Part shown: positions 15,583-36,023 of the stretch, piece by piece
Numbering within the stretch: the stretch's first letter is position 1
Layout: every line of letters begins with the position of its first letter
Source: Bryobacterales bacterium
GTDB lineage: Bacteria; Acidobacteriota; Terriglobia; Bryobacterales; UBA6623
DNA length: 64,000 bases
Direction: 5' to 3'
Assembly (NCBI GenBank): GCA_022823865.1
Contig: JAJEHF010000002.1
Location: 34,731 to 98,730 of the forward strand
The notes under the pieces: generated by a model
Databases searched by the model: none
Told to the model about the DNA's origin: nothing
What the model saw: only the letters and a program-made list of their open reading frames with translations
Made by a program: the position numbers and the translations under genes

Positions 15583-17718
15583 CTACAAGCGTGCCCGGTC
15601 CCAAGCGCCGAAAGTGCTGCCCTGCCCTGCCAGCTCTTCCAGTAGGGGCGCGGGGCGCCACCAGTGACCGTGAGCCGCGTGAAACTCTTTCACGCGCTCC
15701 AACACACTGGCCAAGCCCACCGTGTCGGCGTAGAACATCGGACCGCCCCGCTGCGGCGGAAAGCCGTAGCCATACAGGTAGATGATGTCGATGTCCGACG
15801 AACGCAGGGCGTAGCCCTCCTCGAGGATGCGGGCGCCTTCATTGACCAGGGCGTAAACGAGGCGGTCGCGGATCTCGTTATCGTCGACGTCACGCTGCTC
15901 AATACCCTCCTCGGCGGCGATGCGCTGCAGCACGGCATCGACCTCGGGATCCTCGTTACGGCTGCGGTCCTCGCCATAGCGGTACCAGCCCGCACCGGTC
16001 TTTTGGCCGTAGCGACCGAGCTCGCAGAGTGCATCCTCGGCCAATGGCCGCCGGGTGCCGGGCGGATATAGATGCGGCGCTTCCTTGCGCACGCGCATGC
16101 CGACATCCAGACCGGCTAGATCTCCCACCGCCATCGGGCCCATCGCGGCCCCGAACTCGTACATGATGCTGTCGATGCGGGACGGCTTGGCACCCTCCTC
16201 GGCTAGGAACTGGGCTTCGCGCCGGTAGGGATGGAACATGCGGTTGCCCACGAAGCCGTGGCAGTTGCCAACGAGCACGCCGACCTTCCGCAAGGTGCGG
16301 GCCAAGGCCATCGAAGTGGCGACCACATCCTTGGCGGTCTCCCGGCCTCGCACGATTTCCAGCAACCGCATGACGTTGGCCGGGCTGAAGAAGTGGTGCC
16401 CGATGACGTCCTGCGGACGCGAGGTAACAGAGGCGATCTCGTCCACGCTCAGAGTGGAAGTGTTGGTGGCGAGCACGGCCCCGCTGCGCGCAACGCCATC
16501 GATCTGCTGGAAGACCTCCTTCTTCAGAGCCATGTTCTCGAAGACGGCCTCCACGACGATGTCGGCCCCTTCGAAGCCCTCCCAGCCTGTCTGGGCCGTG
16601 ATCAGAGCCAAGCGCTGCTCGGCAAACTCGGGCGTGAAGCGCCCGCGCTTGACAGAGCGCTCGTAGTTCTTGCGGATCGTCGCCATGCCCTTGTCGAGCG
16701 CCTGTTGGGTGACTTCCTTGATGCGCACGGGAATTCCGGCGTTGGCGTAGGACATCGCGATGCCGCCGCCCATGGTCCCCGCACCAAGCACGGCGGCGGA
16801 ACGGATCGGTCGTGTCGGCGTCTGCTTGGGGACGTCGGGAATCTTGCGCACCTGCCGCTCGGAAAAGAACGCATGGATGAGCGCCTTCGATTGCGTCGAG
16901 AACAGGCACTCCTGAAAGATCTCGGCCTCGCGCTTGATGCCATCGGCGAACGGCAGGGTCACCGCGCACTGCACGGCGTCGATGGCCTTCAGCGGCGCCA
17001 TCTGGCCCCTGCGGATCCTGCGCACCTTGGTCCTGGCAGCGTCGCAGATGGCGGCCGCCGCTTCCGGCGTGCCCAAGCGCTCGTCGCGCTCGCTCGCCTT
17101 GGGGTGCGGCCCCCCGCCCGCGGCGATCCCCGCCGCAAACTCGACCGCGCCAGCCAGCAATTCCTCGTAGCCGCTGCCTTCAATCACTCGGTCGACGATG
17201 CCGTGGTCAAAGGCGTCGGCGGCCGAGATCGGATCGCCAAGCGCGCACATCTCCACAGCCTTCTCCACCCCCGCCAGCCGCGGCAACCGCTGGGTACCGT
17301 GAGCACCCGGGATGATGCCGAGCTTGACCTCCGGCTGCCCGACCTGGGCCGACGCCAAAGCCACCCGGTAATGGCACCCCTGGGCCGTCTCCAAGCCGCC
17401 GCCGAACGCGGTCCCGTGGATCGCCGCGACGGTCGGCTTGGGGGAGTTCTCAAGCCGCTCGATGACGGTTGTCAGGCCCGGCCCGCTCCTCTTCTGCCCA
17501 GATGTGATCTTGCCGAACTCCTTGATGTCCGCCCCTGCGATGAAGGTGCGCCCGCCTCCGATCAGGACGATGGCATTGACGCTGTCGTCTTCGCCGAACT
17601 GCCCGACACCAGCCAGGATGCCGTCCGGAACACCGGGGCTGAGAGCGTTCACGGGGGGATTGTCGACCGTGATGACGCCGACGCCGCCCTCGACACTCAA
17701 ACGGACCAAGTTCGACAT
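15583..17718 (-). CDS. fatty-acid oxidation multifunctional enzyme (enoyl-CoA hydratase / 3-hydroxyacyl-CoA dehydrogenase, FadJ/FadB type)
   Basis: 711 aa. N-terminal crotonase fold ([20 protein letters not shown]), then the NAD-binding [15 protein letters not shown] and 3HCDH C-terminal domains. Confidence 0.92.
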
Positions 17719-18629: not shown

Positions 18630-18972
18630 GCCTCTTCCATTGTGCAGCAATGCCTGTCCGGGAGGCACGGCGACCTGCGGCAGATCGAACGCAGTTCTGC
18701 CGGTCCAAGGCGCGGAAAACGACCTTGATATAGGGACTCATGACTTATATCGAGGAGTCGCGAGTCCTGTGACATACTGAAATCAAATGCAGCCAGCAGC
18801 AACATTGATGCGGTTTGCCTGTATTCCGGTGGCTGGGGCTCTTGCCGCCGAAGCGCTAACGTGGGCCGCTGGGCCGCGCGTTGCTTCAGAACCGTGTCGA
18901 GTAGTGGTTCGCCACTAGTCGATATAGGTCCCACATAACTCGATTCGGGCTCGGTCCGCAAATCTCCAGCCA

Positions 18973-20483: not shown

Positions 20484-21251
20484 TCACTGCAGCAACGTGC
20501 GCACAAGCGCAGCGTTGCGCTTACTCACCGTGTATTGCAAGCCGTTGACCAGCGTCAGCAGCCAGCGGCGACTGCTCAGCGAGCTGATGCGGCCGATCTT
20601 GTCGCTGTTGACAAGAACTGCCCTGTGCACCCGCAGGAAACTCGAGCCGGCCAGCTTGGACGCAATGGCTGTCAGCGTCTGCGTGGCACGGTAGCGCTTG
20701 TTCTGCGTTTGGATCCAGACGATCTCGCCCGAAGCCTGAAAGGCATAGACCTGATCGAGATCTATCAGCAAGAACTCGCGCCCGTGGCAGGCGACGATCT
20801 TCGAACTCTGCCGGCCGCGCTGAGCTGCGGCGTTGACCGTCCGCGCCACCCGCTCGGCGTTGTCCCGAGGATTCCTGTGGGCCCGCCGGGCCCTCTGGAT
20901 CGAGCGGTCGAGCCGCTCGACGCTGAACGGCTTCAACAAGTAGTCGACCGCGCCGATCTCGAACGCCTTCAGCGCGTGCTCGCTGTAAGCGGTCACGAAG
21001 ACGATCGAAGGCAGTTGCCCGCGGATACCGCGAACAACCTCAAACCCGTCACGGACGGGCATCTGGATATCGAGAAGCACCAAGTCGGGATGCAGCTCTT
21101 CGATCCGCTGCATCGCGGTCAGCCCGTTCTCAGCCTCGCCCACGATCTCGACACCCTCGATCTGGGTCAAGTCACGGCGTAGCACGTCGCGAGCAGCGCG
21201 CTCGTCGTCGACGATCAGAGTTCGCAGTGTCCGGGATGGCCCGTCGGGCAT
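20484..21251 (-). CDS. two-component response regulator, LytTR DNA-binding family
   Basis: Receiver domain (LIVDDE ... LLDIQMP) plus a C-terminal LytTR domain (FLRVHRAVLVNSDKI). Confidence 0.92.
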   Translation of the reverse strand: MPDGPSRTLRTLIVDDERAARDVLRRDLTQIEGVEIVGEAENGLTAMQRIEELHPDLVLLDIQMPVRDGFEVVRGIRGQLPSIVFVTAYSEHALKAFEIGAVDYLLKPFSVERLDRSIQRARRAHRNPRDNAERVARTVNAAAQRGRQSSKIVACHGREFLLIDLDQVYAFQASGEIVWIQTQNKRYRATQTLTAIASKLAGSSFLRVHRAVLVNSDKIGRISSLSSRRWLLTLVNGLQYTVSKRNAALVRTLLQ

Positions 21252-21543
21252 GCTGTCCGATGTTGTATCACGGCAGCCGCCTTACCACCGCGCACAACGA
21301 CGCGAACGGAACAATCAAGTCACTGAGCGGAACCCTAGCGCCTGTCGAGCGGGGCAGTCGGCTTGAGAGCGATGCGGGCGCCCGGTGCTGTCCGATCGTC
21401 GAAATGCGATCAAGACTGCACTGCCGTTCGGGCGGAGCGCGAACGCAGGTTCAAGACGCGGGATTGTAGGATCGCTCGTCAAATCGTGTAAGAGAGCGTA
21501 CGGAACCGGTTGATGGAATGACGATGCTACGTTTTATACATCT

Positions 21544-21577
21544 ATATACTAGACATGTGAAAGATCATATACTAAAC
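21544..21577 (+). promoter_or_regulatory. direct repeats in the AT-rich promoter region (candidate LytTR binding site)
   Basis: ATATACTAGAC (21544-21554) and ATATACTAAAC (21567-21577) are separated by a 12-nt spacer. The sigma70-like hexamers TAGACA-N17-TAAACT overlap them, and TATAAA lies at 21584-21589. Confidence 0.45.
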
Positions 21578-21641
21578 TAAACATATAAAGAACGATGATT
21601 TTACGAAATCAGAGTTGACTCTCAATCACTGGAGGATAAAC

Positions 21642-22142
21642 ATGAAAAGCAAGACTGACACACCTGCAGCAGCAAGTCAGAAATCCATGGTCGCTCTACT
21701 GATCCGCCTCGGGGCCGATCCGGACGAAGCGTATAATGCGACCGAGACCATGACGTCGGAAGCCAAGCGCGTCGCCCTAGAGCTCGTGGAGGGATCGAAG
21801 CTGCAGCTTCTGTCGCGCATCGAGGCGCTCCACGCTGCGCTCAAGGGCTTCAAGGCTGAAGTTGAGACGCGATTCGAAGCCGTCGACCACCGCTTCGAGT
21901 CAATCGAACGCGAGATGAGAACGGGCTTCAGAGGCATCGACCAGCGCTTCGATGGAATGGAGAGGCGGTTCGACGAAATGGAAAGGCGGTTCGACAGGAT
22001 GCAAGTCCAGTTCGATGGCCATCTCGCAAGCTATCGGAAGCTGCTCTTCCTGCTGGTTGCACCCGTTGCCGTAGCCATCACGGCTGGAATCGGAGCGATG
22101 CTCTGGAAGGCCATCAGCAGCGGGGCGACTGGCTTGCCGTAG
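21642..22142 (+). CDS. tail-anchored coiled-coil protein with RF(D/E)-type 11-residue repeats (DUF1640/XhlA-like architecture)
   Basis: ATG 21642 is preceded by GGAGGA with a 5-nt spacer (ggaggataaacATG). The repeats are ETRFEAVDHRF ESIEREMRTGF RGIDQRFDGME RRFDEMERRFD RMQVQFD. A C-terminal TM follows: LLFLLVAPVAVAITAGIGAMLW. Confidence 0.7.
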   Translation: MKSKTDTPAAASQKSMVALLIRLGADPDEAYNATETMTSEAKRVALELVEGSKLQLLSRIEALHAALKGFKAEVETRFEAVDHRFESIEREMRTGFRGIDQRFDGMERRFDEMERRFDRMQVQFDGHLASYRKLLFLLVAPVAVAITAGIGAMLWKAISSGATGLP

Positions 22143-22423: not shown

Positions 22424-24247
22424 GTGGAGTCCGTGAATCACTTTCCGATCCTGCTGAACCTGCTGGGGCACACAGCCGGGATTACGGCCTTCGGGGCCTT
22501 CCTAGTGCTGCTCGTCCGGAGCCCGCGCCCGGATATCCGCGTGCCGGCAGCCGCAGCTGCGCTGGCGCTGTGCTGGAATCTCGGGTCGTTGACGGTGCTG
22601 CTGGCCGAGCCGGCGGGACAGTTCCAGGCTGCCATCTCGGCCCTGAGTCTAGCCTTCTTGAGCATGCTGCCCTGCACGCTGCTGCACTCGGCGCTCGGTA
22701 ACGAACATCGCTGGCTGTCAGCAGCCGGGTACACCGTTGGTGCGGCGGCGGTGACGATCCACGTCACGAACGCCTTGGGCGTGCCGGTCGCCAGTCCGGG
22801 CACGGGTCTGGCTTCGATCAACTATGGCTTCGGCTCCCTGTCAGTGATCGGCGCCGTGCTACTGGCGCGCGGCGGGTCCCGGCGGACGCGCTCGGGCATG
22901 CGGACGCTGGCGGCGATGGCGCTGTTCCTGCTGGCCCTTTCGTTTGTCCATTTTGGCCGCGCCCACGAGCCGGGAGCGTGGTTGCACGAATTGGTGTTCC
23001 ACCACGCCGGCATTCCGTTGGCCCTGTTCGTGCTGCTCCAAGACTACCGCTTCCTGCTCATGGACGTGTTTGTGCGGCTGGCCGGGTCGGTCCTGTTGGC
23101 AGCGGCGGTCGCGGGCACGATCCTATGGGTGGCAGACCTGCTGGGCCTGGTGCAGGCCGCCTCTGAGACCGCATGGGACTTGGCGGCATTCTTGGTGCTG
23201 TCCGGCTTGGCGATCTTGGCCTATCCCGCGATCGCTCAGCGCATGGGAGCTTGGGCGGAGAACAGCCTCTTCAGACGCAAGAACGTGCAGGACGCCACCC
23301 GCGCCGTCGGCGCGCTGGAAGCCGATGGCGAGAGTACCTTCCTGACGGGCGCGGGGGGAGTGATCGCTGAGTTCGTGTCCGCGGCGCATTGGGAGCTGTT
23401 GGGCGCAGACAGCAAGGTGCGCGTCGCGAAGCCAGAAACGATTCCCGCGCCGGGCATGGAGGCGCTCCACGCTGCTGGTCACGGCTGGAGCGAGGCCGTG
23501 GTGCCGCTGCGAGACGGAGTGGGAGCCCAGCGCCTCTTGCTGCTCGGCGCACGCGACGGCGGGCGTCGCTACCTGAGCGTTGATCTGGCCGATCTGGAGC
23601 TGCTCGCTACGGCAGTCGGCAGGCGGGTCGAGGCAATGCGTCGCGGGGAGCAGGATAGCCTGTTGCGCGATTCCGAGATCGCGGCGCTGCGGGCCCAGAT
23701 CAACCCCCACTTCCTCTTCAACGCCCTGAACGCCCTCAACGCGATCATTCCCGCGGGAGCTACGGCTGCCCGCAAGACCCTGTTGAACCTGGCTGACATC
23801 TTCCGCTACTCGTTGAGCAGCAAGCAGCAGCTCGTCTCGCTCGCCGACGAGATCGATATCGTGGAGGCCTACCTGCAGATCGAAAGGCTCCGCCTGGCAG
23901 ACCGGCTCACCGCGCGCATAGAAATCGACGAGCGGGTCCGGTTCAACCGAGTGCCGGCGCTGTCGATCCAGCCGCTGGTGGAGAACGCAGTCAAGCACGG
24001 CGTGAGCCGCAAGGCCGATGGCGGAGAAGTGCGGGTCTCGGCCCGCGAGGATTCGGGCGGGCTGCGCGTGGAGGTGGCAGACAACGGCCCCGGCTTCGAC
24101 ACGCAGGCCCAGCCAGGCGGCGGCCACGGGCTGCGCAGCGTCGAGCGGCGGCTGCAACTGTGCTACGAGGGAGCGGTGGAGTTTCGAGTCGAATCCGATG
24201 CTTCCGGATCCCGCGTCGGCTTCACTATCCCGGCCGCTGCACAATAG
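22424..24247 (+). CDS. sensor histidine kinase, LytS/YehU type (His_kinase PF06580 + HATPase_c), polytopic N-terminus
   Basis: About 8 predicted TM helices, then RAQINPHFLFNALNALNAII and an ATPase domain (LVENAVKHG, DNGPGF, GGGHGL). The start is GTG at 22424 or 22433. Confidence 0.9.
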   Translation: MESVNHFPILLNLLGHTAGITAFGAFLVLLVRSPRPDIRVPAAAAALALCWNLGSLTVLLAEPAGQFQAAISALSLAFLSMLPCTLLHSALGNEHRWLSAAGYTVGAAAVTIHVTNALGVPVASPGTGLASINYGFGSLSVIGAVLLARGGSRRTRSGMRTLAAMALFLLALSFVHFGRAHEPGAWLHELVFHHAGIPLALFVLLQDYRFLLMDVFVRLAGSVLLAAAVAGTILWVADLLGLVQAASETAWDLAAFLVLSGLAILAYPAIAQRMGAWAENSLFRRKNVQDATRAVGALEADGESTFLTGAGGVIAEFVSAAHWELLGADSKVRVAKPETIPAPGMEALHAAGHGWSEAVVPLRDGVGAQRLLLLGARDGGRRYLSVDLADLELLATAVGRRVEAMRRGEQDSLLRDSEIAALRAQINPHFLFNALNALNAIIPAGATAARKTLLNLADIFRYSLSSKQQLVSLADEIDIVEAYLQIERLRLADRLTARIEIDERVRFNRVPALSIQPLVENAVKHGVSRKADGGEVRVSAREDSGGLRVEVADNGPGFDTQAQPGGGHGLRSVERRLQLCYEGAVEFRVESDASGSRVGFTIPAAAQ

Positions 24248-26830: not shown

Positions 26831-27613
26831 ATGCCCGATGCGCTGCAAGGCAAGGTCATTCTGGTCACAGGCTCGACCCAGGGCCTGGGCGCGGAGATCG
26901 CCCGCCTCTCGGTAGAGCGAGGGGCTGCAGGCCTCGTGCTGACCGGCCGCTCGGCAGAGCGCGGCGAGGCACTGGCGGCTGCCTTGGGATCCGCGCAATG
27001 CCGAGTGATCTTCGTGCAAGCCGAACTCGCCAGCGCCGCCACGTGCCGGGAAATCATCAAGCGGGCCGACACCGCGTTCGGCCGTTTGGACGGCTTGGTC
27101 AACGCCGCTGCCTGCACTGAGCGCGGCACCCTCGAGGACACGTCGGCCGAGCACTGGGACAAGATCATGGCGATCAACCTGCGTGCGCCGTTCCTGCTGA
27201 TCCAAGGTGCCGTGCGCATCATGCAGCGCGAGGGCAATGGCGGGAGCATCGTCAACATCCAGAGCATGTCGGCCCACGGCGGCACGCCCAATCTGACTGC
27301 CTACAGCGTGTCGAAGGGCGGCCTCGGCATCCTGACGCGGAACGCCGCGCACTCCCAGAGAGCGCACAATATTCGGGTGAACGCCCTCAATATTGGCTGG
27401 ATGGCCACTCCCGCCGAGCATGCCGTGCAACGCCTGGAAGGCCAGCCCGAGGACTGGCTGCAAGCAGCGGACAAGGAAGCGCCGTTCGGCAGGATACTAC
27501 GCCCCCGGGACGTGGCTGGCATGGCCGCGTACCTGCTCAGCGAGGAAGCCCGCATGATGACGGGAGCCTTGGTCGACTTCGACCAGCACGTGATGGGCAT
27601 CTACGATCCCTAG
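26831..27613 (+). CDS. short-chain dehydrogenase/reductase (SDR)
   Basis: ATG 26831 follows GGAAGG. TGSTQGLG cofactor motif, NAAA, and the catalytic YSVSK. Confidence 0.88.
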   Translation: MPDALQGKVILVTGSTQGLGAEIARLSVERGAAGLVLTGRSAERGEALAAALGSAQCRVIFVQAELASAATCREIIKRADTAFGRLDGLVNAAACTERGTLEDTSAEHWDKIMAINLRAPFLLIQGAVRIMQREGNGGSIVNIQSMSAHGGTPNLTAYSVSKGGLGILTRNAAHSQRAHNIRVNALNIGWMATPAEHAVQRLEGQPEDWLQAADKEAPFGRILRPRDVAGMAAYLLSEEARMMTGALVDFDQHVMGIYDP

Positions 27614-27726
27614 ACTGCGGCGTGCTGCGCCAGGGAGGCAGCTAGATCTGACGGGAAGTGCTATGCTTGGGACTGGCAAAGGGTATCCCCTATCACCGAG
27701 GCATGCCCGCAATATGGCCCGGTTTT

Positions 27727-27802
27727 GGGCGCGTAGCTCAATTGGTAGAGCAAGTGACTCTTAATCACTAGGTTCGGGGTTCGAGTCCCTGCGCGCTCAC
27801 CA
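27727..27802 (+). tRNA. tRNA-Lys (anticodon CUU), CCA encoded
   Basis: Hand-folded cloverleaf: acceptor GGGCGCG/CGCGCTC, D arm GCTC-AATTGGTA-GAGC, anticodon arm AGTGA-CTCTTAA-TCACT, T arm CGGGG-TTCGAGT-CCCTG, discriminator A, then CCA. Confidence 0.93.
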
Positions 27803-28032
27803 CTCCAAGATCGGGCAATGCGCGACCCGCTTGCGCTTCCACACGGCGGCCTGGCGCCCCTCCAGCGCATTGAAGCCACAACGCCATCGCAGCGTCGCCG
27901 GGCCGGCACGCGAGCGGCCTAGTGGCGCTTGCCCGATGGAGCGGGAATCCGTCCCGTTCACCAAGGCTTCGCGCCCGCCTGTAGCAAAATCCTATGGTTT
28001 CTCCACAGGTGCGCCTAAGCTGTTTAGCTCAA

Positions 28033-30471
28033 ATGTCATCCCTGTGCCTCCGCCTCCTAGCCGCCTCGGCTATAGCCATTCTTGCAATCCCCGGGTCGGC
28101 ACAGACGACGGGCACCCTTGCCGGAACCGTTTCGATGAAGGAGACGGGCAGCCCGATGCACGGCGCGAACGTGCTCATCGTCGAGCTGGGCCGCAGCATT
28201 CTCTCCGACGACGACGGAGGATTCGAATTCGACCGCGTTCCGCCCGGGACATACCATGTCGTTGCCCATCTGGACCACATCTTCACGGAAGCCGCAAAGA
28301 CCGTACAGGTAGAGTCCGGCCGCGCGGCATCGGTCGATTTCCTCCTTGCACTGGTCACCGACCGGTACGAAATCACAGTCACCGCGTCGGAGCTCCACGA
28401 GACGACTTTCGAGTCCTTCCAGGATGTCGAGTCTCTGGATGCCTATGACCTGGCCGAAGGAACGGCCATATCGCTGGGCGAGGCGCTGGACCACCAGGTC
28501 GGGACCGGAATCGCAAAGCGCAGCTTTGGCCCTGGCAGTTCGCGGCCGATCATCCGGGGATTCGACGGCGACCGCGTCCTAGTCATGGAGGACGGCATCA
28601 GCACCGGAACTCTGTCGTCACAGTCCGGCGACCACGGGGAAGTCGTGAACGTTGGGCAGCTGGCAAGACTTGAGATCGTGAAGGGGCCCGCGACGCTGTT
28701 GTACAGCGGCAACGCGATGGGAGGCACGGTCAATGCGATCAGCCGCCACCACGAGCATCACCCCCATCCACACGAAGGCTTTCGAGGATTCCTGTCGGGT
28801 TCAGGCGGGACTGCGAATGCGCTGGCGGGAGGGAATGCGGGCTTCGAACTCGGAGTCGGGAGGACGATGCTCTGGGGCCACGGCGGAGGGATTCGCACAG
28901 GAGATTACACGGCGGCGGGACAAGGCCAGATCTACAATTCCCGGTCGGAGCTCATGAACGGAGGGGGCGGGTTCGGCTGGTACGGGAAATCGATGTTCCT
29001 CACCGCTGAAGCGAGGGTCGACCGTGGCGACTCCGGAGTTCCCTTCGCTCAGGAGTTCCACGCGCACGGGCATGAGGAGGAGGACGACCACGACGACGAA
29101 GACGACGACCACAAAGAGGGCGAGGACGAAGACGAGGACGAAGATCACGACGAAGAGGAAGAAGATCACGAGGAGGAGGAGCTCGAGCGAGTCTCCCTCC
29201 AGAGCCGTCGCACAAGCTACCGGGTGACGTGGGGCCTGCAGAATCTCGATGGACCTGTCGAGAGCTTCGACCTCAAGCTGAGCTACGTCGACTGGAACCA
29301 TGACGAGATCGAGCACTTCGCGGATGGCGAGTCGGCTATCGGGACGATGTTCCACAACAATCGGTTCACCTATCGCGGGGTGTTCGAACAAAGACAGCGG
29401 GGACTGCTGTCGGGTCGGTTCGGCGTCTGGGGTGTTGACCGCGCCTACGAGGCCACGGGCGAGGAGGCACTCTCCCCGCCAGTCGACCAGAACGGGCTCG
29501 CATTCTTCGCCCTGGAAGAGCTGGACTTCGAACGATTCAAGATCCAGTTCGGGGGACGCATCGAGACACAGCGCTACAAGCCCGCGTACGCGGAACGCGA
29601 AGGCCACGACGAGGAAGAGGAAGAGGGAGGAGACCACGCCGAGGGCGACGAGGGCGAGGGCGAGGAGGAGGACCACCACGAAGAGCGGGAGCCTCCCGAT
29701 GCAGTCGATCGGGCCTTCACCGGAGGCTCGGCCGCGATCGGCATCCACGCCGATACCTGGCAGGGAGGGGCGTTCGTAGCCAACTTCGCCAGAAGCTTCC
29801 GCGCACCGTCGCTCGAGGAGCTGTACAACTTCGGACCACACGCCGGAAACAGGGCATTCGAGATCGGCAATCCCGGCCTGGCTGCCGAGACCGGAAACGG
29901 AATCGATGTCTCGTTGCGACACAACGAGGGCCGTGTCCGCGCCGAATTCAACGTCTTCTACTACGACTTCGACAACTTCATCTTCCCGTTCTCCACCGGC
30001 GAGCTGGTTGACGAGTTCCTAGAGATCGAGTACACGCAGCGCAACGCCCGTTTCACCGGCGCAGAAGCGAGCCTCGGGATCGACCTGAATGACGTTCTTC
30101 GCCTGAACCTCGGCATGGACTATGTCGATGCGAAGGACACCGATACCAACACGTACCTGCCTCGGATCCCGCCCTTGCGCGGGCGCATAGGCTTCGACCT
30201 TCGCAAGGGCGGCTTCCGCCTGTCCCCGGAATTTGTGATGGCAAGCGAACAGAGCCGGACGTTCACGGGCGAAACCGCGACACCCGGGTATACGGTCGTG
30301 AACCTCAAGGCCGCCTACACCGTCGCCCGCCAGCACTTGGCACACCAGTTCGCGGCCGAAGTGTTCAATATCGGGGACCAGCTCTACCGGAACCATTCGT
30401 CCTTCATCAAGGACCTGGCCCCTGAGATCGGTCGAGGCGTGCGGTTTACGTATACCGTGCGATTCTTCTGA
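28033..30471 (+). CDS. TonB-dependent receptor with N-terminal CarboxypepD_reg domain and His/Asp/Glu-rich insertions
   Basis: ATG 28033 gives signal MSSLCLRLLAASAIAILAIPGSAQ. It has a carboxypeptidase-regulatory-like fold (GTLAGTV...GTYHVVAHLDH), a plug (RPIIRGFDGDRVLVMEDG) and the terminal ...RFTYTVRFF. Acidic/His inserts lie at 28747-28776, 29059-29187 and 29593-29700. Confidence 0.88.
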   Translation: MSSLCLRLLAASAIAILAIPGSAQTTGTLAGTVSMKETGSPMHGANVLIVELGRSILSDDDGGFEFDRVPPGTYHVVAHLDHIFTEAAKTVQVESGRAASVDFLLALVTDRYEITVTASELHETTFESFQDVESLDAYDLAEGTAISLGEALDHQVGTGIAKRSFGPGSSRPIIRGFDGDRVLVMEDGISTGTLSSQSGDHGEVVNVGQLARLEIVKGPATLLYSGNAMGGTVNAISRHHEHHPHPHEGFRGFLSGSGGTANALAGGNAGFELGVGRTMLWGHGGGIRTGDYTAAGQGQIYNSRSELMNGGGGFGWYGKSMFLTAEARVDRGDSGVPFAQEFHAHGHEEEDDHDDEDDDHKEGEDEDEDEDHDEEEEDHEEEELERVSLQSRRTSYRVTWGLQNLDGPVESFDLKLSYVDWNHDEIEHFADGESAIGTMFHNNRFTYRGVFEQRQRGLLSGRFGVWGVDRAYEATGEEALSPPVDQNGLAFFALEELDFERFKIQFGGRIETQRYKPAYAEREGHDEEEEEGGDHAEGDEGEGEEEDHHEEREPPDAVDRAFTGGSAAIGIHADTWQGGAFVANFARSFRAPSLEELYNFGPHAGNRAFEIGNPGLAAETGNGIDVSLRHNEGRVRAEFNVFYYDFDNFIFPFSTGELVDEFLEIEYTQRNARFTGAEASLGIDLNDVLRLNLGMDYVDAKDTDTNTYLPRIPPLRGRIGFDLRKGGFRLSPEFVMASEQSRTFTGETATPGYTVVNLKAAYTVARQHLAHQFAAEVFNIGDQLYRNHSSFIKDLAPEIGRGVRFTYTVRFF

Positions 30472-31156
30472 TCCGCCGCCCCGGGGCGCCCAGAGACCGG
30501 CGTTATCGCCATCGCGGAGCGTCTCACATGGCGCCGCTTGAGGTGCGAGCCCCAGGCCGGTGAGAGCGAACCGCTCAACCGGTTCCAAGCCTTGGCGCGT
30601 AAACTTGCGTTCGATGTGGCCGGGAGAGCAGACGTCGAGTACTGGCCTTCCCCGGTCCCGGGACAACCCGATCAGGGCTCGGCTCGCTGGGTGACTCTTG
30701 AGATCGAACGCAGCTGTCTGGCGGACATTGGTGGGGGATAGCTGCCGGTCAAGTTGCTGGGCATCGCTTGAAGCCCGTCAGGGACTGCCGCACGCTGACG
30801 TTAGCGGCGGCAAACGATGCCAGCCCGGTGGCTCACGCCAGCTGGATGTACACCGGGCATGCTCGCTGCTGCGCGACGCCTCTTGCGAGAACGCGCTGTC
30901 AAGCGCGCTGTGACGATTCGACATATTGCCCGTGCGTCTCTTCAAGCGGTCTGATTGTTGCGTCCCCGAGGCGCTCGACCGCCTACTCGCCGGACGCCAG
31001 CCCGTTCCCTTCTGCGGACCGCTCCGTGCCGTTCACACCAGAGGGCGTTCCAGTTGCAGCCCAAATGCCAAGACGTGTATCCTATTGGGCGCATCTAAGC
31101 CCTAGCCGCAGCGGCCCGTCCAGCGCTGGCGTCAGAGTGGGCATAGGAGGAATCAC

Positions 31157-32347
31157 ATGGCAACAAATCGAGGCGTTGCATATATTCGCCCCGGAGTCGT
31201 CGAAATCCAATCGATTGACTTTCCCAAGCTAGCGCTCGGGGATCGCAAGTGCGAGCACGGCGTGATCCTGCGGATCGTCTCCACCAATATCTGCGGCAGC
31301 GACCAACACATGGTCCGCGGTCGGACCACCGCACCGGAAGGACTCATCCTGGGTCACGAGATCACCGGCGAGGTGATCGAGGCCGGCCGCGATGTAGAGT
31401 TCATCTCCGTCGGCGACATCGTCTCGGTACCGTTCAACATCGCATGCGGACGTTGCCGCAACTGCAAGGGCGGGCTGACCGGCATCTGCCTCAACGTCAA
31501 TCCGGCCAGACCCGGCGCCGCATACGGCTACGTGGATATGGGCGGCTGGGTAGGCGGCCAGGCCGAGTACGTCATGGTCCCCTACGCCGACTTCAACCTG
31601 CTCAAGTTCCCTGACCGGGGCCAAGCCATGGAGAAGATCGGCGACTTGACGTTGCTTTCCGATATCTTCCCGACCGGCTACCACGGAGCGGTGACGGCGG
31701 GGGTGGGGCCGGGTTCGATCGTCTACGTCGCAGGCGGGGGGCCGGTCGGCCTAGCGAGCGCGCACGGCTGCCAGCTCCTCGGAGCGGCCTGCGTGATCGT
31801 TGGGGATATGATCCCCGAGCGGCTTGCCCAGGCGGCAAGCTTCGGCTGCGAGACCGTGGATCTGAGCAAGGACGCCTCGCTAGCGGAGCAGATCGAGCAG
31901 ATCGTGGGCGAGCCCGAAGTCGATTGCGGCGTGGACTGCGTGGGATTCGAGGCCCGCGGGCACGGCCGCGAAGCGGTTGTCGAGCGGCCTGCCACCGTGC
32001 TCAACGCGCTGATGGAGGTCACGCGGGCGGGCGGCGGCATCGGCATTCCGGGCCTGTACGTGACCGGAGATCCGGGCGGCGTCGACGACAACGCCAAGAT
32101 CGGCAACCTGGGCATTCGCATCGGCCTGGGGTGGGCCAAGTCCCACCACTTCATGACCGGCCAGTGCCCGGTGATGAAATACCACCGCCAGCTCATGCAG
32201 GCGATTCTGTACGGCAAGGCGTCTCCGGCCAAGGCGTGCAACGTCACCTACATCTCGCTGGACGAGGCTCCGCAAGGCTACAAGGACTTTGACAAGGGCG
32301 CGGCTCGGAAGTTCGTGATCGATCCGCACGCTCTAATCGCAGCCTGA
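31157..32347 (+). CDS. fdhA: glutathione-independent formaldehyde dehydrogenase (Zn-ADH family)
   Basis: AGGAGG lies 6 nt upstream of the ATG. NRGVAYIRPG...EHGVILRIVSTNICGSDQHMVRGRTTAPEGLILGHEITGEVIE closely matches the Pseudomonas FdhA N-terminus as I recall it. Confidence 0.85.
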   Translation: MATNRGVAYIRPGVVEIQSIDFPKLALGDRKCEHGVILRIVSTNICGSDQHMVRGRTTAPEGLILGHEITGEVIEAGRDVEFISVGDIVSVPFNIACGRCRNCKGGLTGICLNVNPARPGAAYGYVDMGGWVGGQAEYVMVPYADFNLLKFPDRGQAMEKIGDLTLLSDIFPTGYHGAVTAGVGPGSIVYVAGGGPVGLASAHGCQLLGAACVIVGDMIPERLAQAASFGCETVDLSKDASLAEQIEQIVGEPEVDCGVDCVGFEARGHGREAVVERPATVLNALMEVTRAGGGIGIPGLYVTGDPGGVDDNAKIGNLGIRIGLGWAKSHHFMTGQCPVMKYHRQLMQAILYGKASPAKACNVTYISLDEAPQGYKDFDKGAARKFVIDPHALIAA

Positions 32348-33336: not shown

Positions 33337-33621
33337 AGAGCGGCCATCGCTCGGTTGCTTCTCGTTGAAGGACCGGCCACCGAGCAGCCGGCCGCTCGAC
33401 ATTTGATCCCGTCTGGCGGCAGAGCATTAGCGGGTCGCGGCTGCGGGAGAGGTCGATCAGATAGACAGGCTGGGGCCTGGCGGGCCGGCCCGACAGCCAA
33501 GGGCGGGGCTACGAGCGACTATTTGCCCGGCAAAGGCGCCCACGGGCGTTCAGTCTCAATGCCGCGATGCGGGCCACGGCTTCGGCCTCGCACAGTCTGC
33601 TAGCCTTGATAGTCATTCGCC

Positions 33622-34413
33622 ATGCGGCTACTGACATCCATCGCACTGCTCGCGGTGATTCCGGCCATCCTCAGCGCTGCGCGGACCCACGAGACCAACC
33701 CTATGAGTTCGCCGGAGGACTTCGAGGAGGGCCGACGACTGTATCGCATCAACTGCGGGGTCTGCCACGGCATGGAGGGCAAGACTGGACGCGGCTCCCG
33801 CTTGGCGCGTCGCAGCTACCGCCATGGCAATGCCGATGCCGCCCTCTTCGACCTGATCGAAGGCGGAATCCCGGGCACGGACATGCCCGGACTGTGGCTT
33901 GACGAGGATGACATCTGGAGAATCCTCCTGTTCGTCCGCACGTTCGCGGAGAAAGCCAGCGAGGTCTGTAACGCGAGCGGCGACGCGGCCGCCGGAAAGC
34001 GCGTCTTCGACTCGCAGGGTTCGTGCCTGGCCTGCCACACCGTCGGGAGTCGCGGCGGCCGGCTCGGCCCGGACATGTCGTTCGCGGGCGTGCAGTACAC
34101 CGACCAGCAACTGCGCGATGCGCTGCTGGAGCCCTCGCGCGAGGTGACCGGCCGTTACGAGACCGCGAGACTTGTCACAGCGGAAGGCGAACGCGTCGAG
34201 GGTGTGGTGATGAACGAGAACAGCTACAACATCTTCGTCATGGACCGTTCCGAGAACATCCGGTCGTTCCGCAAAGCGGAGCTTCGATCGCTCGATCTCC
34301 CGGAGGAATCGCTGATGCCTGCCTATGGGGACCTGCTGAGCACTGCAGATCTCGAAAACCTGATCGCCTACCTGTGCTCGCTGCAGGGGCCGGCCGAGGA
34401 GGTCGCGCAGTGA
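33622..34413 (+). CDS. dihaem c-type cytochrome (Planctomycete/Verrucomicrobia-type haem-binding domain)
   Basis: Signal MRLLTSIALLAVIPAILSA. Two CxxCH sites (CGVCHGMEG and CLACHTVG). The stop overlaps the start of the downstream PQQ-ADH. Confidence 0.85.
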   Translation: MRLLTSIALLAVIPAILSAARTHETNPMSSPEDFEEGRRLYRINCGVCHGMEGKTGRGSRLARRSYRHGNADAALFDLIEGGIPGTDMPGLWLDEDDIWRILLFVRTFAEKASEVCNASGDAAAGKRVFDSQGSCLACHTVGSRGGRLGPDMSFAGVQYTDQQLRDALLEPSREVTGRYETARLVTAEGERVEGVVMNENSYNIFVMDRSENIRSFRKAELRSLDLPEESLMPAYGDLLSTADLENLIAYLCSLQGPAEEVAQ

Positions 34414-36023
34414 AGACCCTGCTATTGCGATGGATGCTCCCGTCGGCACTGCTCTGCGCCGCTGCCGCGGCGGGAGAGGTGACCTATCAGGACCTGCTGA
34501 ACGACCCGAACGTAGCATCCGACTGGCTGAACTATCACGGGGGTTACGCCGGGCACCGGCACAGCCTGCTGGACGAGGTGAACCGCTCGAACGTCGAGTC
34601 CCTGCGACTGCAGTGGGCCTTCCAGGAAAAGATCGCTGAGAAGTTCGAAGTCACGCCCATCGTCCATGACGGAATCATGTACATCACTGTCCCGCCAGGC
34701 GATGTCTACGCGCTAGACGCGGAGACCGGGGCCCGGCTGTGGCGGTATTCCAGGCGCCTGCCCGCCAAGCTGATCGCATGCTGCGGGCTCGTCAACCGCG
34801 GTCTGGCGATCCTGGGCGACCGGCTGTTCATGGCGACCCTGGACGCCTACACTATCGCGCTGGACCGCAAGACGGGGCGCCTGCTGTGGGAGACGGAACT
34901 GATCGATTACTCCCTAGGCTATTCGGGCACGCTCGCGCCCTTGGTGGTCAAGGACATGGTCATGGTCGGCACGGCCGGAGGCGAGTACGGCATCCGGGGG
35001 TTTATCGACGCCTTCGATGTCGAGACCGGAGAGCGCCGCTGGCGCTTCTACACCGTCCCGGGCCCGGGAGAGTTCGGCAACGACACTTGGTCCGGAGACT
35101 CGTGGAAGACTGGCGGGGCCTCGATCTGGATCACCCCCAGCTACGACCCCGAACTGAACCTCGTCTACTGGGGAGTGGGCAATCCGGGGCCGGACTGGAA
35201 CGGCGATGTGCGCCTGGGGGACAACCTGTTCTCGGATTCCGTGGTCGCCCTGGACGCGGACACCGGCAAGCGCAAGTGGCACTTCCAGTTCACCCCGCAT
35301 GACGTCCATGACTGGGACGCCACGCAAGTCATGGTGCTGATCGACCGGGAGTACCGAGGAGTGGAGCGCAAGCTGCTGGTGACCGCCAACCGGAACGGCT
35401 TCATCTACATGCTGGATCGCGAAACGGGCGAGTTTCTCAAGGCGACGCAATTCGTCAAGCAGACCTGGGCGGTCGGGATTTCCGAAGAAGGCCGACCGAT
35501 TCGGCGGCCGGGCATGGAGCCGAGCGCCGAGGGCATCGAGGTGTACCCGGCGGTGGCCGGCGGCACGAATTGGATGTCTCCTGCCTACAGTCCAGACACG
35601 GGCTTGCTGTACGTCTCTTGCCGCGAAGGCAGCAGCATGTACTTCAAGGGCGAGACCGAGTACCGGCCCGGCACCCGCTACTGGGGCAGCATGTTCGTCA
35701 ACGAGTCCACCATGGGCGAGTGGTACGGCGCTGTCCGGGCATTCCATCCGGTGACTGCCGAGAAGGTCTGGGAGCACAAGCTCTTCCAGCCGGTGTGGGC
35801 CGGATTGCTCTCCACGGCCGGCGGCTTGGTGTTTGCCGGAGGCAGCGGTGGCTTCTTCAAGGCGCTTGATTCCGAATCGGGCGAGGAGCTGTGGCGAATC
35901 AACCTCGGAGCGTCGATCCTTGCCAGCCCGATGACGTACGAGGTCAACGGCCGCCAGCTGGTTGCGGTTGCCTCCGGCGGCGGGATGTTCGTGTTCGCGC
36001 TGCCGCAAGAATCCGCGCCGTAG
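34410..36023 (+). CDS. PQQ-dependent alcohol dehydrogenase (methanol/ethanol family, no haem domain)
   Basis: GTG 34410 (GTGA overlap with the cytochrome c stop) gives signal VKTLLLRWMLPSALLCAAAAAG. DWLNYHGGYAGHRHS, the vicinal disulfide LIACCGLVNRG and the active-site stretch HDVHDWDAT. Confidence 0.9.
   Translation: MKTLLLRWMLPSALLCAAAAAGEVTYQDLLNDPNVASDWLNYHGGYAGHRHSLLDEVNRSNVESLRLQWAFQEKIAEKFEVTPIVHDGIMYITVPPGDVYALDAETGARLWRYSRRLPAKLIACCGLVNRGLAILGDRLFMATLDAYTIALDRKTGRLLWETELIDYSLGYSGTLAPLVVKDMVMVGTAGGEYGIRGFIDAFDVETGERRWRFYTVPGPGEFGNDTWSGDSWKTGGASIWITPSYDPELNLVYWGVGNPGPDWNGDVRLGDNLFSDSVVALDADTGKRKWHFQFTPHDVHDWDATQVMVLIDREYRGVERKLLVTANRNGFIYMLDRETGEFLKATQFVKQTWAVGISEEGRPIRRPGMEPSAEGIEVYPAVAGGTNWMSPAYSPDTGLLYVSCREGSSMYFKGETEYRPGTRYWGSMFVNESTMGEWYGAVRAFHPVTAEKVWEHKLFQPVWAGLLSTAGGLVFAGGSGGFFKALDSESGEELWRINLGASILASPMTYEVNGRQLVAVASGGGMFVFALPQESAP

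What the first reader, a model, noticed from the sequence alone, without database searches (positions are those of the whole stretch)
28747..29700. TonB-dependent receptor with three extreme His/Asp/Glu insertions
Three low-complexity segments interrupt an otherwise ordinary TBDR:
- RHHEHHPHPHE (28747-28776)
- HAHGHEEEDDHDDEDDDHKEGEDEDEDEDHDEEEEDHEEEELE (29059-29187)
- EREGHDEEEEEGGDHAEGDEGEGEEEDHHEEREPPD (29593-29700)

His/Asp clusters in surface loops are the hallmark of metal-piracy receptors such as ZnuD. The overwhelmingly carboxylate-rich character here would also suit hard trivalent cations. Given two predicted lanthanide-type dehydrogenases nearby, a rare-earth (or Zn/Ni/Co) capture role is an attractive hypothesis but untested.

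An imperfect inverted repeat, TGTAGCAAAA-N8-TTTCTCCACA (27980-28007), lies 26 bp upstream of the start. It could be a metalloregulator site, but I do not recognise it as a Fur or Zur box.
Basis: partly seen in the sequence, partly recalled or inferred. Interest (0 to 1): 0.7.

Follow-up and report, generated by a model that had tools for sequence, protein, structure and literature searches.

The report
ZnuD-like metal receptor with acidic loops
This soil-bacterium gene encodes an outer-membrane importer related to the zinc receptor ZnuD, carrying very acidic, histidine-studded surface loops, and it appears to be switched on by a nearby two-component sensor rather than by a classical zinc repressor.

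Summary
The three His/Asp/Glu segments are real and far from chance. The gene (28033-30471) is a TonB-dependent receptor of Bryobacterales (Acidobacteriota).

Its closest solved relative, by sequence and by fold, is the zinc importer ZnuD. All four ZnuD high-affinity zinc ligands (D213, H214, E438, H616) are kept in 116 homologs.

- Segment 2 is the counterpart of ZnuD's zinc-fishing loop 3.
- Segment 3 is a lineage-specific expansion of loop 6. Both are extracellular.
- Segment 1 is not a surface insert. It is a nearly invariant R-H-H-E-x-H-x-H-x-H motif in the plug-to-barrel linker, which lies on the periplasmic side.

The conserved upstream element is a direct repeat, CCGYTCA, with exact 21-bp spacing, the layout of a LytTR response-regulator site. 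The same repeat precedes the LytTR regulator gene 6.7 kb upstream. That regulator and its kinase sit beside receptor homologs in at least four different arrangements.

Zinc, or a similar divalent metal, is the best-supported substrate. The lanthanide idea rests only on lineage-restricted synteny with PQQ dehydrogenases and is not excluded.

Verdict: a new variant of a known kind, of moderate interest.

The parts
27952..27960 (+). Direct repeat 1 (TCCCGTTCA; core CCGTTCA 27954-27960), proposed LytTR regulator half-site, 79 nt before the ATG
   Evidence: Invariant block in the alignment of 13 orthologous promoters. CCGYYBR pairs at exactly 21-bp spacing occur in 22/102 loci, against 0-5 loci at any other spacing and 0 on the reverse strand. 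Consensus derived.
27973..27981 (+). Direct repeat 2 (GCCCGCCTG; core CCGCCTG 27975-27981), 21 bp after repeat 1 and just upstream of the -35-like hexamer
   Evidence: The 9-bp repeat plus 12-bp spacer layout matches the ComE and PlnC/D sites described in PMC4005675 and PMC2714321.
27980..28007 (+).
   Evidence: 7/10 complementary. 440 equivalents in 64 kb. Not conserved as a palindrome. No consensus RNA structure.
27994..28021 (+). Putative core promoter: weak -35-like ATGGTT (27994-27999), 16-nt spacer, -10-like TAAGCT (28016-28021). This is an inference.
   Evidence: T-A-n-n-C-T is invariant in all 13 aligned promoters. The simple sigma-70 scan did not call it, so it remains an inference.
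28033..30471 (+). Coding sequence of the TonB-dependent receptor (812 aa from ATG 28033; the ORF opens at 27994). It ends ...TYTVRFF-stop.
   Evidence: Homologs align from the residue encoded at 28033. The signal peptide MSSLCLRLLAASAIAILAIPGSAQ is encoded at 28033-28104.
28114..28347 (+). N-terminal CarboxypepD_reg-like domain (aa 41-118)
   Evidence: Pfam PF13620, E 7e-13.
28366..28386 (+). TonB box YEITVTA (aa 125-131)
   Evidence: Read directly from the sequence. It lies between the N-terminal domain and the plug. Its resemblance to the BtuB-type box DTLVVTA is from general knowledge.
28414..28728 (+). Plug domain (aa 141-245). Includes D213 and H214 (28630-28635), which correspond to ZnuD Asp99 and His100.
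   Evidence: Pfam PF07715, E 5e-16. Alignment to 4rdr. Ligand list from PMC4557270. Conservation D 119/121 and H 121/121.
28744..28776 (+). Segment 1: conserved His motif R-H-H-E-x-H-x-H-x-H in the plug-to-barrel linker (aa 251-261), on the periplasmic side
   Evidence: R251, H252, H253, H256, H258 and H260 are kept in 117-121 of 121 sequences. The motif follows the last plug strand and precedes strand 1. It is absent from ZnuD and from the proteobacterial relatives.
29059..29187 (+). Segment 2: extracellular loop 3, 88% His/Asp/Glu, net charge -30 (aa 356-398)
   Evidence: Its start aligns to ZnuD cluster 1 (HSHEYDDCHAD) and its end to cluster 2 (HDDDNAHAHTH). It is disordered in the model, between two long strands. 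The position is conserved while the length varies from about 17 to 316 aa.
29305..29307 (+). E438, counterpart of ZnuD Glu340, within the motif DWNHDEIEH
   Evidence: Conserved 121/121.
29593..29700 (+). Segment 3: expansion of extracellular loop 6 (aa 534-569), net charge -19
   Evidence: Six strands after loop 3, so on the same face. The position matches ZnuD loop 6, residues 430-459. The expansion is lineage-specific and recurs independently in L024, L028-L030 and L034-L036.
29797..29880 (+). FRAP...H616...NPGL loop. H616 (29839-29841) corresponds to ZnuD His499.
   Evidence: H conserved 121/121.
20484..21251 (-). LytTR-family response regulator (255 aa), proposed activator of the receptor gene
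   Evidence: Pfam Response_reg + LytTR. Best NCBIfam matches are BtsR and LytR, both below cut-off. Orthologs sit directly beside receptor homologs in L012, L049, L055, L059 and L077.
21303..21330 (-). Second copy of the direct-repeat pair (CCGCTCA-N14-CCGTTCG), 79 nt upstream of the regulator's own start codon
   Evidence: One of only three strict matches in the 64-kb window. The pair is found upstream of the regulator gene in 7 loci.
22424..24247 (+). Sensor histidine kinase (607 aa): about nine transmembrane helices with no Pfam match, then His_kinase + HATPase_c
   Evidence: Invariant residues are H88, H113, H176, E189, H193, H194, D207 and D214. A hydropathy and positive-inside reading places H176-H194 at the periplasmic face (heuristic).

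Best explanation
The gene encodes a ZnuD-type TonB-dependent importer of a free divalent transition-metal ion, most likely Zn2+.

Proposed mechanism:
1. Two disordered, strongly anionic, His-studded extracellular loops (L3 and L6) concentrate and pass on cations, as proposed for ZnuD loop 3. This step is inferred.
2. [quoted passage not shown] The ligands are shown to be conserved; binding itself is inferred.
3. TonB action on the plug releases the ion into the periplasm.
4. A conserved five-to-six-His motif at the plug-barrel linker may receive the ion at the periplasmic exit. This step is inferred, and ZnuD has no counterpart.

Transcription is driven not from a Fur/Zur-type operator but from a promoter with two 9-bp direct repeats 21 bp apart. 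These are bound by the LytTR response regulator encoded 6.7 kb upstream, which also carries the repeats in front of its own gene. The repeat and the gene association are shown by comparative genomics; binding is inferred.

The partner kinase has a conserved His/Glu-rich stretch predicted to face the periplasm. It may be the metal sensor, but this is speculative.
For: - **Family assignment.** Pfam finds Plug and barrel domains. The best NCBIfam match is Zn_piracy_ZnuD at 224 bits, E 4e-66. The best PDB sequence hit is ZnuD 4rdr at E 4e-32. The best fold hits are ZnuD 4rdt, 4rdr and 4rvw at E about 1e-26, ahead of OprC and ChuA.
- **Zinc ligands.** ZnuD ligands Asp99, His100, Glu340 and His499 (PMC4557270) align to D213, H214, E438 and H616. 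They are kept in 119-121 of 121 close homologs and, with only a few Asp-to-Glu/His changes at the first position, in all 116 loci spanning 24-92% identity.
- **Loops.** Segment 2 aligns to both ZnuD loop-3 H/D/E clusters. In the homologs whose loops are H/D/E-rich, His stays at about 10-30% against 2.3% background, across independent expansions. Homologs with short loops often have no His in them.
- **Distant relative.** A homolog in L026 has a FUR-family gene directly downstream of it.
- **Regulation.** The 21-bp-spaced repeat occurs in 22/102 promoters with a strict pattern, against a background of 0.012 per 320 nt. Strict repeat pairs fall 29 times upstream of the receptor gene and 9 times upstream of the regulator gene, and at most 3 times for any other gene. 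The kinase and regulator lie near the receptor in 16 loci and at least four arrangements. The LytTR site architecture is taken from PMC4005675 and PMC2714321.
Against: - The score against the curated ZnuD model is far below its cut-off (224 against 950).
- No znuABC, zur or other zinc gene is a recurrent neighbour in 106 loci.
- No Fur/Zur-like AT-rich palindrome is seen upstream.
- A His2-carboxylate2 site does not discriminate Zn from Co, Ni, Cu, Mn or Fe(II).
- The loops are mostly carboxylate.
- The structure model is only moderate (pLDDT 68.5; the loops and first strands are poorly predicted).
- LytTR systems are not known metal regulators.
Confidence: 0.55

Rival explanations
1. Lanthanide (or other hard trivalent cation) capture. 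The carboxylate-rich loops would harvest Ln3+ for the neighbouring XoxF-like PQQ dehydrogenases, making this an outer-membrane lanthanide entry route in Acidobacteriota.
For: - Loops with net charge -30 and -19.
- Downstream neighbours are a glutathione-independent formaldehyde dehydrogenase (TIGR02819, 734 bits, above cut-off) and a methanol/ethanol-family PQQ dehydrogenase carrying the D-x-D signature.
- This synteny is kept down to a homolog of about 65-68% identity (P0027/L039). A 50%-identity homolog (L014) is surrounded by four PQQ-family genes.
- A study of Acidobacteria carrying XoxF3 found no system like the Methylorubrum lanthanophore cluster (PMC10875860).
Against: - PQQ dehydrogenase neighbours occur in 14/17 close relatives but only 1/18 and 1/34 of more distant ones. 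H/D/E-rich loops also occur in loci without a PQQ neighbour, for example L024 and L041/L042.
- The invariant inner site has two His and is shared with a proven zinc importer. From general chemistry, lanthanide sites use 8-9 oxygen donors.
- His enrichment is maintained in the loops.
- No lut-type ABC transporter, lanmodulin or metallophore cluster was seen among the roughly 26 largest ORFs of the window that were scanned; smaller ORFs were not scanned.
- The receptor has its own promoter, and in L039 an opposite-strand gene separates it from fdhA.
Confidence: 0.12
2. Same mechanism but a different divalent metal (Ni2+, Co2+, Cu2+, Mn2+ or Fe2+) is the physiological substrate.
For: - His/Asp/Glu-rich disordered segments and N2O2 sites bind all of these ions (general chemistry).
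- OprC (copper) is the second-best fold match.
- DUF2946-like small Cys/His proteins sit upstream of several homologs. From memory, such proteins accompany copper-type receptors.
- There is no Zur signature at this gene.
Against: - All four ligands are identical to ZnuD's, not to OprC's. From memory, the OprC site uses Cys, Met and His.
- The ZnuD model scores far above the copper-receptor model, 224 against 61 bits.
- No nickel, cobalt or copper genes were seen in the neighbourhood.
Confidence: 0.18
3. The low-complexity loops are neutral products of triplet-repeat slippage, or merely a surface-charge or antigenic-variation feature. The receptor's substrate would then be unrelated to them, for example haem, given the FRAP/NPxL box with its His.
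For: - The underlying DNA is an imperfect GAN triplet repeat.
- Loop length varies from about 17 to 316 aa among homologs, and some homologs have very short loops.
- TIGR01785, the TonB-haemin model, is the second-best NCBIfam match.
Against: - In the homologs with H/D/E-rich loops, His makes up about 10-30% of the loop. This holds across lineages and independent expansions, and pure GAG/GAC slippage would not maintain it.
- The loop positions coincide with ZnuD's metal-binding loop.
- The haem model score is 143 against a cut-off of 317.
- Asp and Glu ligands specific to the ZnuD pocket are conserved, and that pocket is too small for haem according to PMC4557270.
Confidence: 0.1

Closest known systems
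ZnuD (Neisseria meningitidis zinc-uptake TonB-dependent receptor; PDB 4RDR/4RDT/4RVW; NCBIfam NF038289)
   Same: - Plug plus 22-strand barrel fold.
- Best sequence and fold match.
- Identical Asp-His-Glu-His ligands at aligned positions.
- His/Asp/Glu clusters at both ends of extracellular loop 3.
- A FRAP...His...NPxL loop.
   Different: - About 20% identity, with an HMM score well below the family cut-off.
- An extra N-terminal CarboxypepD_reg domain.
- Loop 3 is almost entirely low-complexity (88% H/D/E), where ZnuD has two 11-residue clusters in a folded loop.
- Loop 6 is also expanded.
- A conserved His motif lies in the plug-barrel linker, which ZnuD lacks.
- No Zur-type operator is recognisable. 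A LytTR-type direct repeat is present instead.
- The host is an environmental Acidobacteriota bacterium, not a host-adapted pathogen.
Zur-regulated zinc TonB-dependent receptors of free-living bacteria (Caulobacter ZnuK/ZnuL/ZnuM, PMC4176598)
   Same: Outer-membrane TonB-dependent zinc scavenging in an oligotrophic environmental bacterium, with several paralogs per genome.
   Different: Those genes carry palindromic Zur boxes (TGTTAT-N-ATAACA type) and one is next to an ABC transporter. Here there is no such box and no transporter neighbour. Sequence relatedness to ZnuK/L/M was not tested.
LytTR two-component regulons (AgrCA, ComDE, PlnBCD, BtsSR/YpdAB)
   Same: The response regulator has a LytTR DNA-binding domain. 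Its target promoters carry two (sometimes three) imperfect 9-bp direct repeats with a 12-bp spacer just upstream of a weak -35. The regulator gene is autoregulated.
   Different: The known systems respond to peptides, pyruvate or membrane state, and control toxins, competence or carbon transporters. None is known to control a metal receptor. The kinase sensor domain here has no Pfam family.
Lanthanide receptors LutH / LanA of methylotrophs
   Same: A TonB-dependent receptor encoded near lanthanide-type PQQ dehydrogenase genes.
   Different: LutH belongs to a cluster with an ABC transporter and takes up a lanthanide-metallophore complex, according to the paper abstracts listed. No such partners are seen here. 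The inner site is ZnuD-like. A direct sequence comparison with LutH could not be made.

Membership tests
TonB-dependent receptor | Plug domain followed by a 22-strand beta-barrel domain | tested here: met
   PF07715 at E 5e-16 and PF00593 at E 2e-39. The AF2 model shows plug strands followed by a long antiparallel strand series. All top PDB fold hits are TonB-dependent receptors.
TonB-dependent receptor | Signal peptide, TonB box before the plug, C-terminal aromatic residue | tested here: met
   Signal peptide MSSLCLRLLAASAIAILAIPGSAQ, TonB box YEITVTA (aa 125-131), and a C-terminus ending ...VRFF. All were read from the sequence.
ZnuD (NF038289, zinc piracy receptor) | Score at or above the curated HMM cut-off (950 bits) | tested here: not met
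   224 bits, E 3.9e-66. It is the best family hit but far below the cut-off. The protein is therefore not filed as ZnuD proper.
ZnuD (NF038289, zinc piracy receptor) | High-affinity site ligands Asp99, His100, Glu340, His499 | tested here: met
   They align to D213, H214, E438 and H616. They are conserved in 119-121 of 121 close homologs and throughout 116 loci.
ZnuD (NF038289, zinc piracy receptor) | His/Asp/Glu clusters in extracellular loop 3 | tested here: met
   Query residues 357-368 align on ZnuD 241-251, and query residues around 388 align on ZnuD 292-298. The loop is 88% H/D/E.
ZnuD (NF038289, zinc piracy receptor) | Repression by Zur / zinc-responsive expression | tested here: inconclusive
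   No Fur/Zur-like palindrome is conserved upstream. The conserved element is a LytTR-type direct repeat. Expression itself cannot be tested with these tools.
ZnuD (NF038289, zinc piracy receptor) | Zinc binding and transport | not testable with these tools
   Needs metal-binding and uptake experiments.
Haem/haemoglobin TonB-dependent receptors (TIGR01785) | HMM score above cut-off (316.85) | tested here: not met
   143 bits. The FRAP...H...NPGL box is present, but ZnuD shares it.
Lanthanide receptor (LutH/LanA type) | Embedded in a lanthanide-uptake cluster (ABC transporter, periplasmic binding proteins, metallophore genes) | tested here: not met
   Pfam on about 20 of the larger window ORFs, out of 47 called, shows no such genes near the receptor. 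None appears among the recurrent neighbours in 106 loci.
Lanthanide receptor (LutH/LanA type) | Sequence similarity to LutH/LanA | not testable with these tools
Lanthanide receptor (LutH/LanA type) | Conserved association with lanthanide-type PQQ dehydrogenases | tested here: inconclusive
   Present in 14/17 close relatives, 1/18 at 60-74% identity and 1/34 below 60%. This is compatible with inherited synteny.
LytTR regulon target | Two 9-bp imperfect direct repeats with a 12-bp spacer immediately upstream of the -35 | tested here: met
   Exact 21-bp periodicity in 22/102 promoters, with three repeats in several loci. The repeats lie at -79 and -58 from the ATG in the window. The architecture is described in PMC4005675 and PMC2714321.
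LytTR regulon target | A cognate LytTR regulator encoded nearby, itself preceded by the same repeats | tested here: met
   The regulator is at 20484-21251. A repeat pair lies at 21303-21330, 79 nt before its start. The same holds in 7 loci. The regulator and kinase are adjacent to the receptor in L012, L049, L055, L059 and L077; in L081 only the kinase falls within the short contig.
LytTR regulon target | Physical binding of the regulator and activation of transcription | not testable with these tools
   Needs EMSA or footprinting and reporter assays.

The most novel reading that the evidence does not exclude
A Zur-independent metal-acquisition circuit in Acidobacteriota, with three parts:
- A membrane histidine kinase with a conserved periplasmic His/Glu patch and a LytTR regulator, which together control the receptor.
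- A ZnuD-type receptor whose hyper-acidic, His-studded loops strip cations from soil minerals or soil solution.
- A periplasmic His cluster on the receptor that hands the ion on.

In the Bryobacterales lineage, where the receptor sits beside fdhA and XoxF-like genes, this receptor would also be the missing outer-membrane entry route for lanthanides.
Probability: 0.1. Interest if true: 0.85.

Novelty: new variant of a known kind. Interest (0 to 1): 0.5.

Why it matters
Acidobacteriota are among the most abundant soil bacteria, yet how they acquire trace metals is almost unstudied. This family has thousands of members and would be their main candidate for outer-membrane zinc uptake.

Three features go beyond the ZnuD paradigm, and each can be tested directly:
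- Surface loops that are essentially polyanionic His/Asp/Glu threads of very variable length.
- An invariant His cluster at the periplasmic exit.
- Control by a LytTR two-component system rather than Zur, which would be an unusual job for that regulator family.

The lanthanide reading, though unlikely, bears on the open question of how non-methylotroph soil bacteria feed their XoxF-type enzymes.

Tried and rejected
- **RNA element upstream.** An Rfam scan of 27500-31200 found only tRNA-Lys. RNAalifold on 13 promoters found no structure. A riboswitch or leader RNA was rejected.
It is at chance frequency and not conserved. On the minus strand it merely resembles a terminator hairpin.
- **Sigma-54 or ECF promoter readings of the conserved blocks.** I considered these by eye. 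The GG/GC invariants are not kept, so they were rejected.
- **Zinc genes as neighbours.** Clustering the ORFs of 106 loci found no recurrent znuABC, zur or COG0523-like neighbour. A FUR-family gene beside a distant homolog (L026) was the only such case seen among the few neighbours that were scanned with Pfam.
- **PQQ importer (PqqU/YncD type), suggested by the PQQ enzymes nearby.** PqqU is only fold hit number 47, and the ZnuD ligands are conserved. Rejected.
- **Kinase sensor domain.** No Pfam family matches even at E <= 10, so a link to MHYT or 5TMR-LYT domains could not be made.
- **Literature.** Searches found no paper describing this family, nor a LytTR-controlled metal receptor.
- **Model coordinates.** They are not exposed by the tools, so ligand distances and the membrane side of segment 1 could not be measured.


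Full report
**Observation**

The + strand ORF 27994-30471 encodes 825 aa.
- aa 356-398, nt 29059-29187;
- aa 534-569, nt 29593-29700.

Their His+Asp+Glu content is 73%, 88% and 69%, against 14% in the rest of the protein. Segments 2 and 3 carry net charges of -30 and -19. In all six frames of the 64-kb window they are the only stretches with at least 22 of 30 H/D/E residues. Their DNA is an imperfect GAN/CAC triplet repeat.

**What the gene is**

Pfam finds CarboxypepD_reg (aa 41-118), Plug (141-245) and the TonB-dependent-receptor barrel (405-793). A signal peptide begins at the second ATG (28033). A TonB box, YEITVTA, precedes the plug, and the protein ends in ...VRFF.

The best curated family match is the zinc-piracy receptor ZnuD, NF038289, at 224 bits and E 4e-66. 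That is far under its 950-bit cut-off. The best solved relative by sequence is ZnuD 4rdr at E 4e-32.

An AlphaFold2 model built from 70 homologs has mean pLDDT 68.5 and pTM 0.69, with the loops and the first strands poorly predicted. Its best fold matches are ZnuD 4rdt, 4rdr and 4rvw at E about 1e-26, ahead of the copper receptor OprC and the haem receptors.

More than 5,300 homologs were scored at E <= 1e-10. The closest ones that carry a source name are labelled Bryobacterales. Genome and metagenome scans gave 116 related loci from Bryobacterales, other Terriglobia, Vicinamibacterales and, more distantly, Proteobacteria and Verrucomicrobiota.

**The metal site**

The ZnuD paper names four ligands of the buried high-affinity zinc site: Asp99, His100, Glu340 and His499. 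It also names two H/D/E clusters in loop 3: 241-HSHEYDDCHAD-251 and 288-HDDDNAHAHTH-298 (PMC4557270).

In the phmmer alignment, chain index equals paper numbering plus 14. I checked this offset on both clusters and on all four ligands. The ligands align to D213 and H214 (SGDHG, in the plug), E438 (DWNHDEIEH) and H616 (FRAPSLEELYNFGPHAGN).

Among the query plus 120 homologs of 57-89% identity, these positions are D 119/121, H 121/121, E 121/121 and H 121/121. Across 116 loci spanning 24-92% identity, the set D-H-E-H is kept throughout, with only a few Glu or His substitutions at the first position. This is the strongest evidence that the family works like ZnuD.

**Where the three segments lie**

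*Segment 2.* Its start aligns on ZnuD cluster 1 and its end on cluster 2. It is therefore the counterpart of ZnuD's extracellular loop 3. Relative to ZnuD it is not an insertion. It is somewhat shorter than ZnuD's loop but almost wholly low-complexity.

*Segment 3.* In the model, six strands separate segment 2 (model residues 337-383) from segment 3 (518-559). Two more strands lead to the FRAP...H...NPGL loop. All three are therefore on the same face, which is extracellular. Segment 3 coincides with ZnuD loop 6 (residues 430-459 in the paper).

*Segment 1.* This one is different. It follows the last plug strand directly and precedes barrel strand 1. Loop 3 is by definition five strands further on. 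The linker must therefore lie on the opposite, periplasmic side.

Segment 1 is also not low-complexity drift. R251, H252, H253, H256, H258 and H260 are kept in 117-121 of 121 sequences. The motif persists down to about 46-50% identity within Acidobacteriota. It is absent from ZnuD and from the proteobacterial and Opitutales relatives.

**Variation of the loops**

Loop 3 is H/D/E-rich in most homologs. Its length runs from about 17 to 316 residues; P0051 has 209 aa and P0103 has 316 aa. The loop-6 expansion is confined to the closer Bryobacterales relatives. It recurs independently in a Vicinamibacterales homolog and in several marine gammaproteobacterial homologs.

Where the loops are H/D/E-rich, His stays at roughly 10-30% against a 2.3% background. 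Slippage of acidic codons alone would not maintain that. I read this as selection for a mixed carboxylate/imidazole thread, as in the flexible loops of ZnuD and ZnuA (comparison made in PMC4557270).

**Regulation**

Repeats of the same geometry and quality occur once per 145 nt in the window. It is not conserved in 13 aligned promoters, and no RNA family or consensus structure was found there.

The conserved elements are two blocks, TCCCGTTCA (27952-27960) and GCCCGCCTG (27973-27981), plus a TAnnCT hexamer (TAAGCT, 28016-28021). The two blocks form an imperfect direct repeat.

With the strict pattern CCGYYBR, pairs at exactly 21-bp spacing occur in 22 of 102 promoters. Any other spacing occurs in 0-5 promoters, and the opposite strand has none. 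The background is 0.012 pairs per 320 nt. Several promoters have three repeats in register.

Two 9-bp direct repeats with a 12-bp spacer, just upstream of a weak -35, is the layout of LytTR-regulator sites: ComE in PMC4005675, PlnC/D in PMC2714321 and AgrA in PMC4227749.

The window encodes a LytTR response regulator (20484-21251, minus strand) and a PF06580 histidine kinase (22424-24247). Orthologs of this pair lie near receptor homologs in 16 loci, in at least four arrangements:
- the window type, with regulator and kinase 3.7-6.7 kb upstream;
- kinase (-) and regulator (+) directly upstream of the receptor (L012, L049, L055);
- downstream of the receptor (L059);
- directly downstream on the same strand (receptor, kinase and regulator in L077, about 51% identity in my alignment and 46% in the scan). 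L081 shows the same start, but only the kinase falls within its short contig.

Only three strict repeat pairs exist in the whole 64-kb window. One lies 79 nt before the receptor's ATG. One lies 79 nt before the regulator's own ATG (21303-21330, minus strand). The third, a weaker one, lies before gatB. Over all loci, strict pairs fall 29 times before the receptor gene and 9 times before the regulator gene, and at most 3 times before any other gene.

I conclude, by comparative genomics only, that the receptor and the regulator gene form a small LytTR regulon.

The kinase's nine-helix sensor domain matches no Pfam family. It has invariant H88, H113, H176, E189, H193, H194, D207 and D214. By hydropathy and the positive-inside rule, the stretch H176-H194 faces the periplasm. 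A metal-sensing role for it is a speculation.

**Genomic context and the lanthanide idea**

The neighbours are an SDR, tRNA-Lys(CTT) and then the receptor. Downstream come a glutathione-independent formaldehyde dehydrogenase (TIGR02819, above cut-off), a xylose-isomerase-like protein and a PQQ methanol/ethanol-family dehydrogenase. A second such enzyme lies at 2794-5058. Both PQQ enzymes carry the D-x-D signature associated with lanthanide use (the rule is from general knowledge).

This synteny is kept in close relatives and in a homolog of about 65-68% identity. A PQQ dehydrogenase lies within 6 kb in 14/17 loci at >=75% identity, 1/18 at 60-74% and 1/34 below 60%. The single exception below 60%, L014, has four PQQ-family genes around it.

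H/D/E-rich loops also occur in loci without PQQ neighbours, for example L024 and L041/L042. The receptor has its own promoter, and in L039 an opposite-strand gene separates it from fdhA.

No lut-type transporter, lanmodulin or metallophore genes were seen among the roughly 26 largest window ORFs that were scanned. Smaller ORFs were not scanned. The invariant His2-carboxylate2 pocket shared with a proven zinc importer argues against a lanthanide substrate. The idea keeps a probability of about 0.1, helped by a report that Acidobacteria with XoxF3 lack known lanthanophore systems (PMC10875860).

**Verdict**

The finding is a real, selected feature of a large Acidobacteriota family of ZnuD-like receptors.
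- The protein works like ZnuD on the evidence of fold, ligands and loop 3. It fails the curated membership cut-off, so I do not file it as ZnuD itself.
- It differs from ZnuD in five ways: an N-terminal CarboxypepD_reg domain, fully low-complexity L3 and L6 loops, a conserved periplasmic His motif, the absence of a recognisable Zur operator, and probable control by a LytTR two-component system.
- I rate it a new variant of a known kind, with interest about 0.5.

Noticed in passing
window 21530-21612: An AT-rich island (76% AT over 80 nt, in a window of 65% G+C) lies between the LytTR regulator gene and the small coiled-coil ORF/kinase. It has conserved blocks TATATACTAGAC and ATATACTAAACTAAACATA.AAAGAACGATGATT.TACGAA, shared with L002, L003, L009 and L010. 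It may be a promoter or operator of the kinase operon. It remains unexplained.
   Followed up: partly
L014:9399-9902, L022, L070; L024, L089, L111, L113, L120; L026-L036 (gene directly upstream of the receptor): Small (86-167 aa) secreted or membrane proteins sit directly upstream of many other family members. They have a CxxC or His cluster and a C-terminal R[AG]PP motif. There is one weak DUF2946 hit (E 0.015). They occur mainly where the linker His motif is degenerate or absent. The window has none.
   Followed up: partly
L026:11243-11680: A FUR-family regulator gene (PF01475, E 5e-18) lies directly downstream of a distant (30% identity) D-H-E-H receptor in a Puniceicoccaceae genome.
   Followed up: partly
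window 31157-32347, 34023-36023 and 2794-5058: A glutathione-independent formaldehyde dehydrogenase (TIGR02819, 734 bits) lies downstream of the receptor. There are also two PQQ methanol/ethanol-family dehydrogenases with the D-x-D (WDYDA, HDWDA) signature, and the first has a C-terminal cytochrome c domain. Together they look like an alcohol/formaldehyde oxidation module.
   Followed up: partly
window 33337-34450: The 666-aa ORF call for the PQQ dehydrogenase has a roughly 150-residue Arg-rich N-terminal extension that is unlikely to be real. Orthologous loci (L003, L039) have a cytochrome c gene at this position. The window copy may be degraded or mis-called.
   Followed up: no
window 18845-18872: A third, weaker 21-bp-spaced repeat pair (CCGCCGA-N14-CCGCTGG) lies 128 nt upstream of gatB. 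It is conserved in L002 and L010. It could be chance or a third regulon member.
   Followed up: no
P0051 (aa 346-554) and P0103 (aa 343-658): Two homologs have loop-3 expansions of 209 and 316 residues, built from near-perfect tandem peptide repeats such as HDEEDEHDEEGEDEHE. These are extreme cases of the same loop.
   Followed up: no
window 27727-27802; L039:8570-9484; L041:9259-9744 and 12635-17522: In the window, tRNA-Lys(CTT) lies directly upstream of the receptor. A matching tRNA 3' end was seen by eye upstream in at least one ortholog, L009. Other loci have transposase or phage-integrase genes next to the receptor. The site may be an integration hotspot.
   Followed up: no
window 21615-22142: A small tail-anchored coiled-coil protein (175 aa, with repeated RF(D/E)xxE motifs and no Pfam family) is conserved between the regulator and kinase genes in the close relatives.
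   Followed up: no
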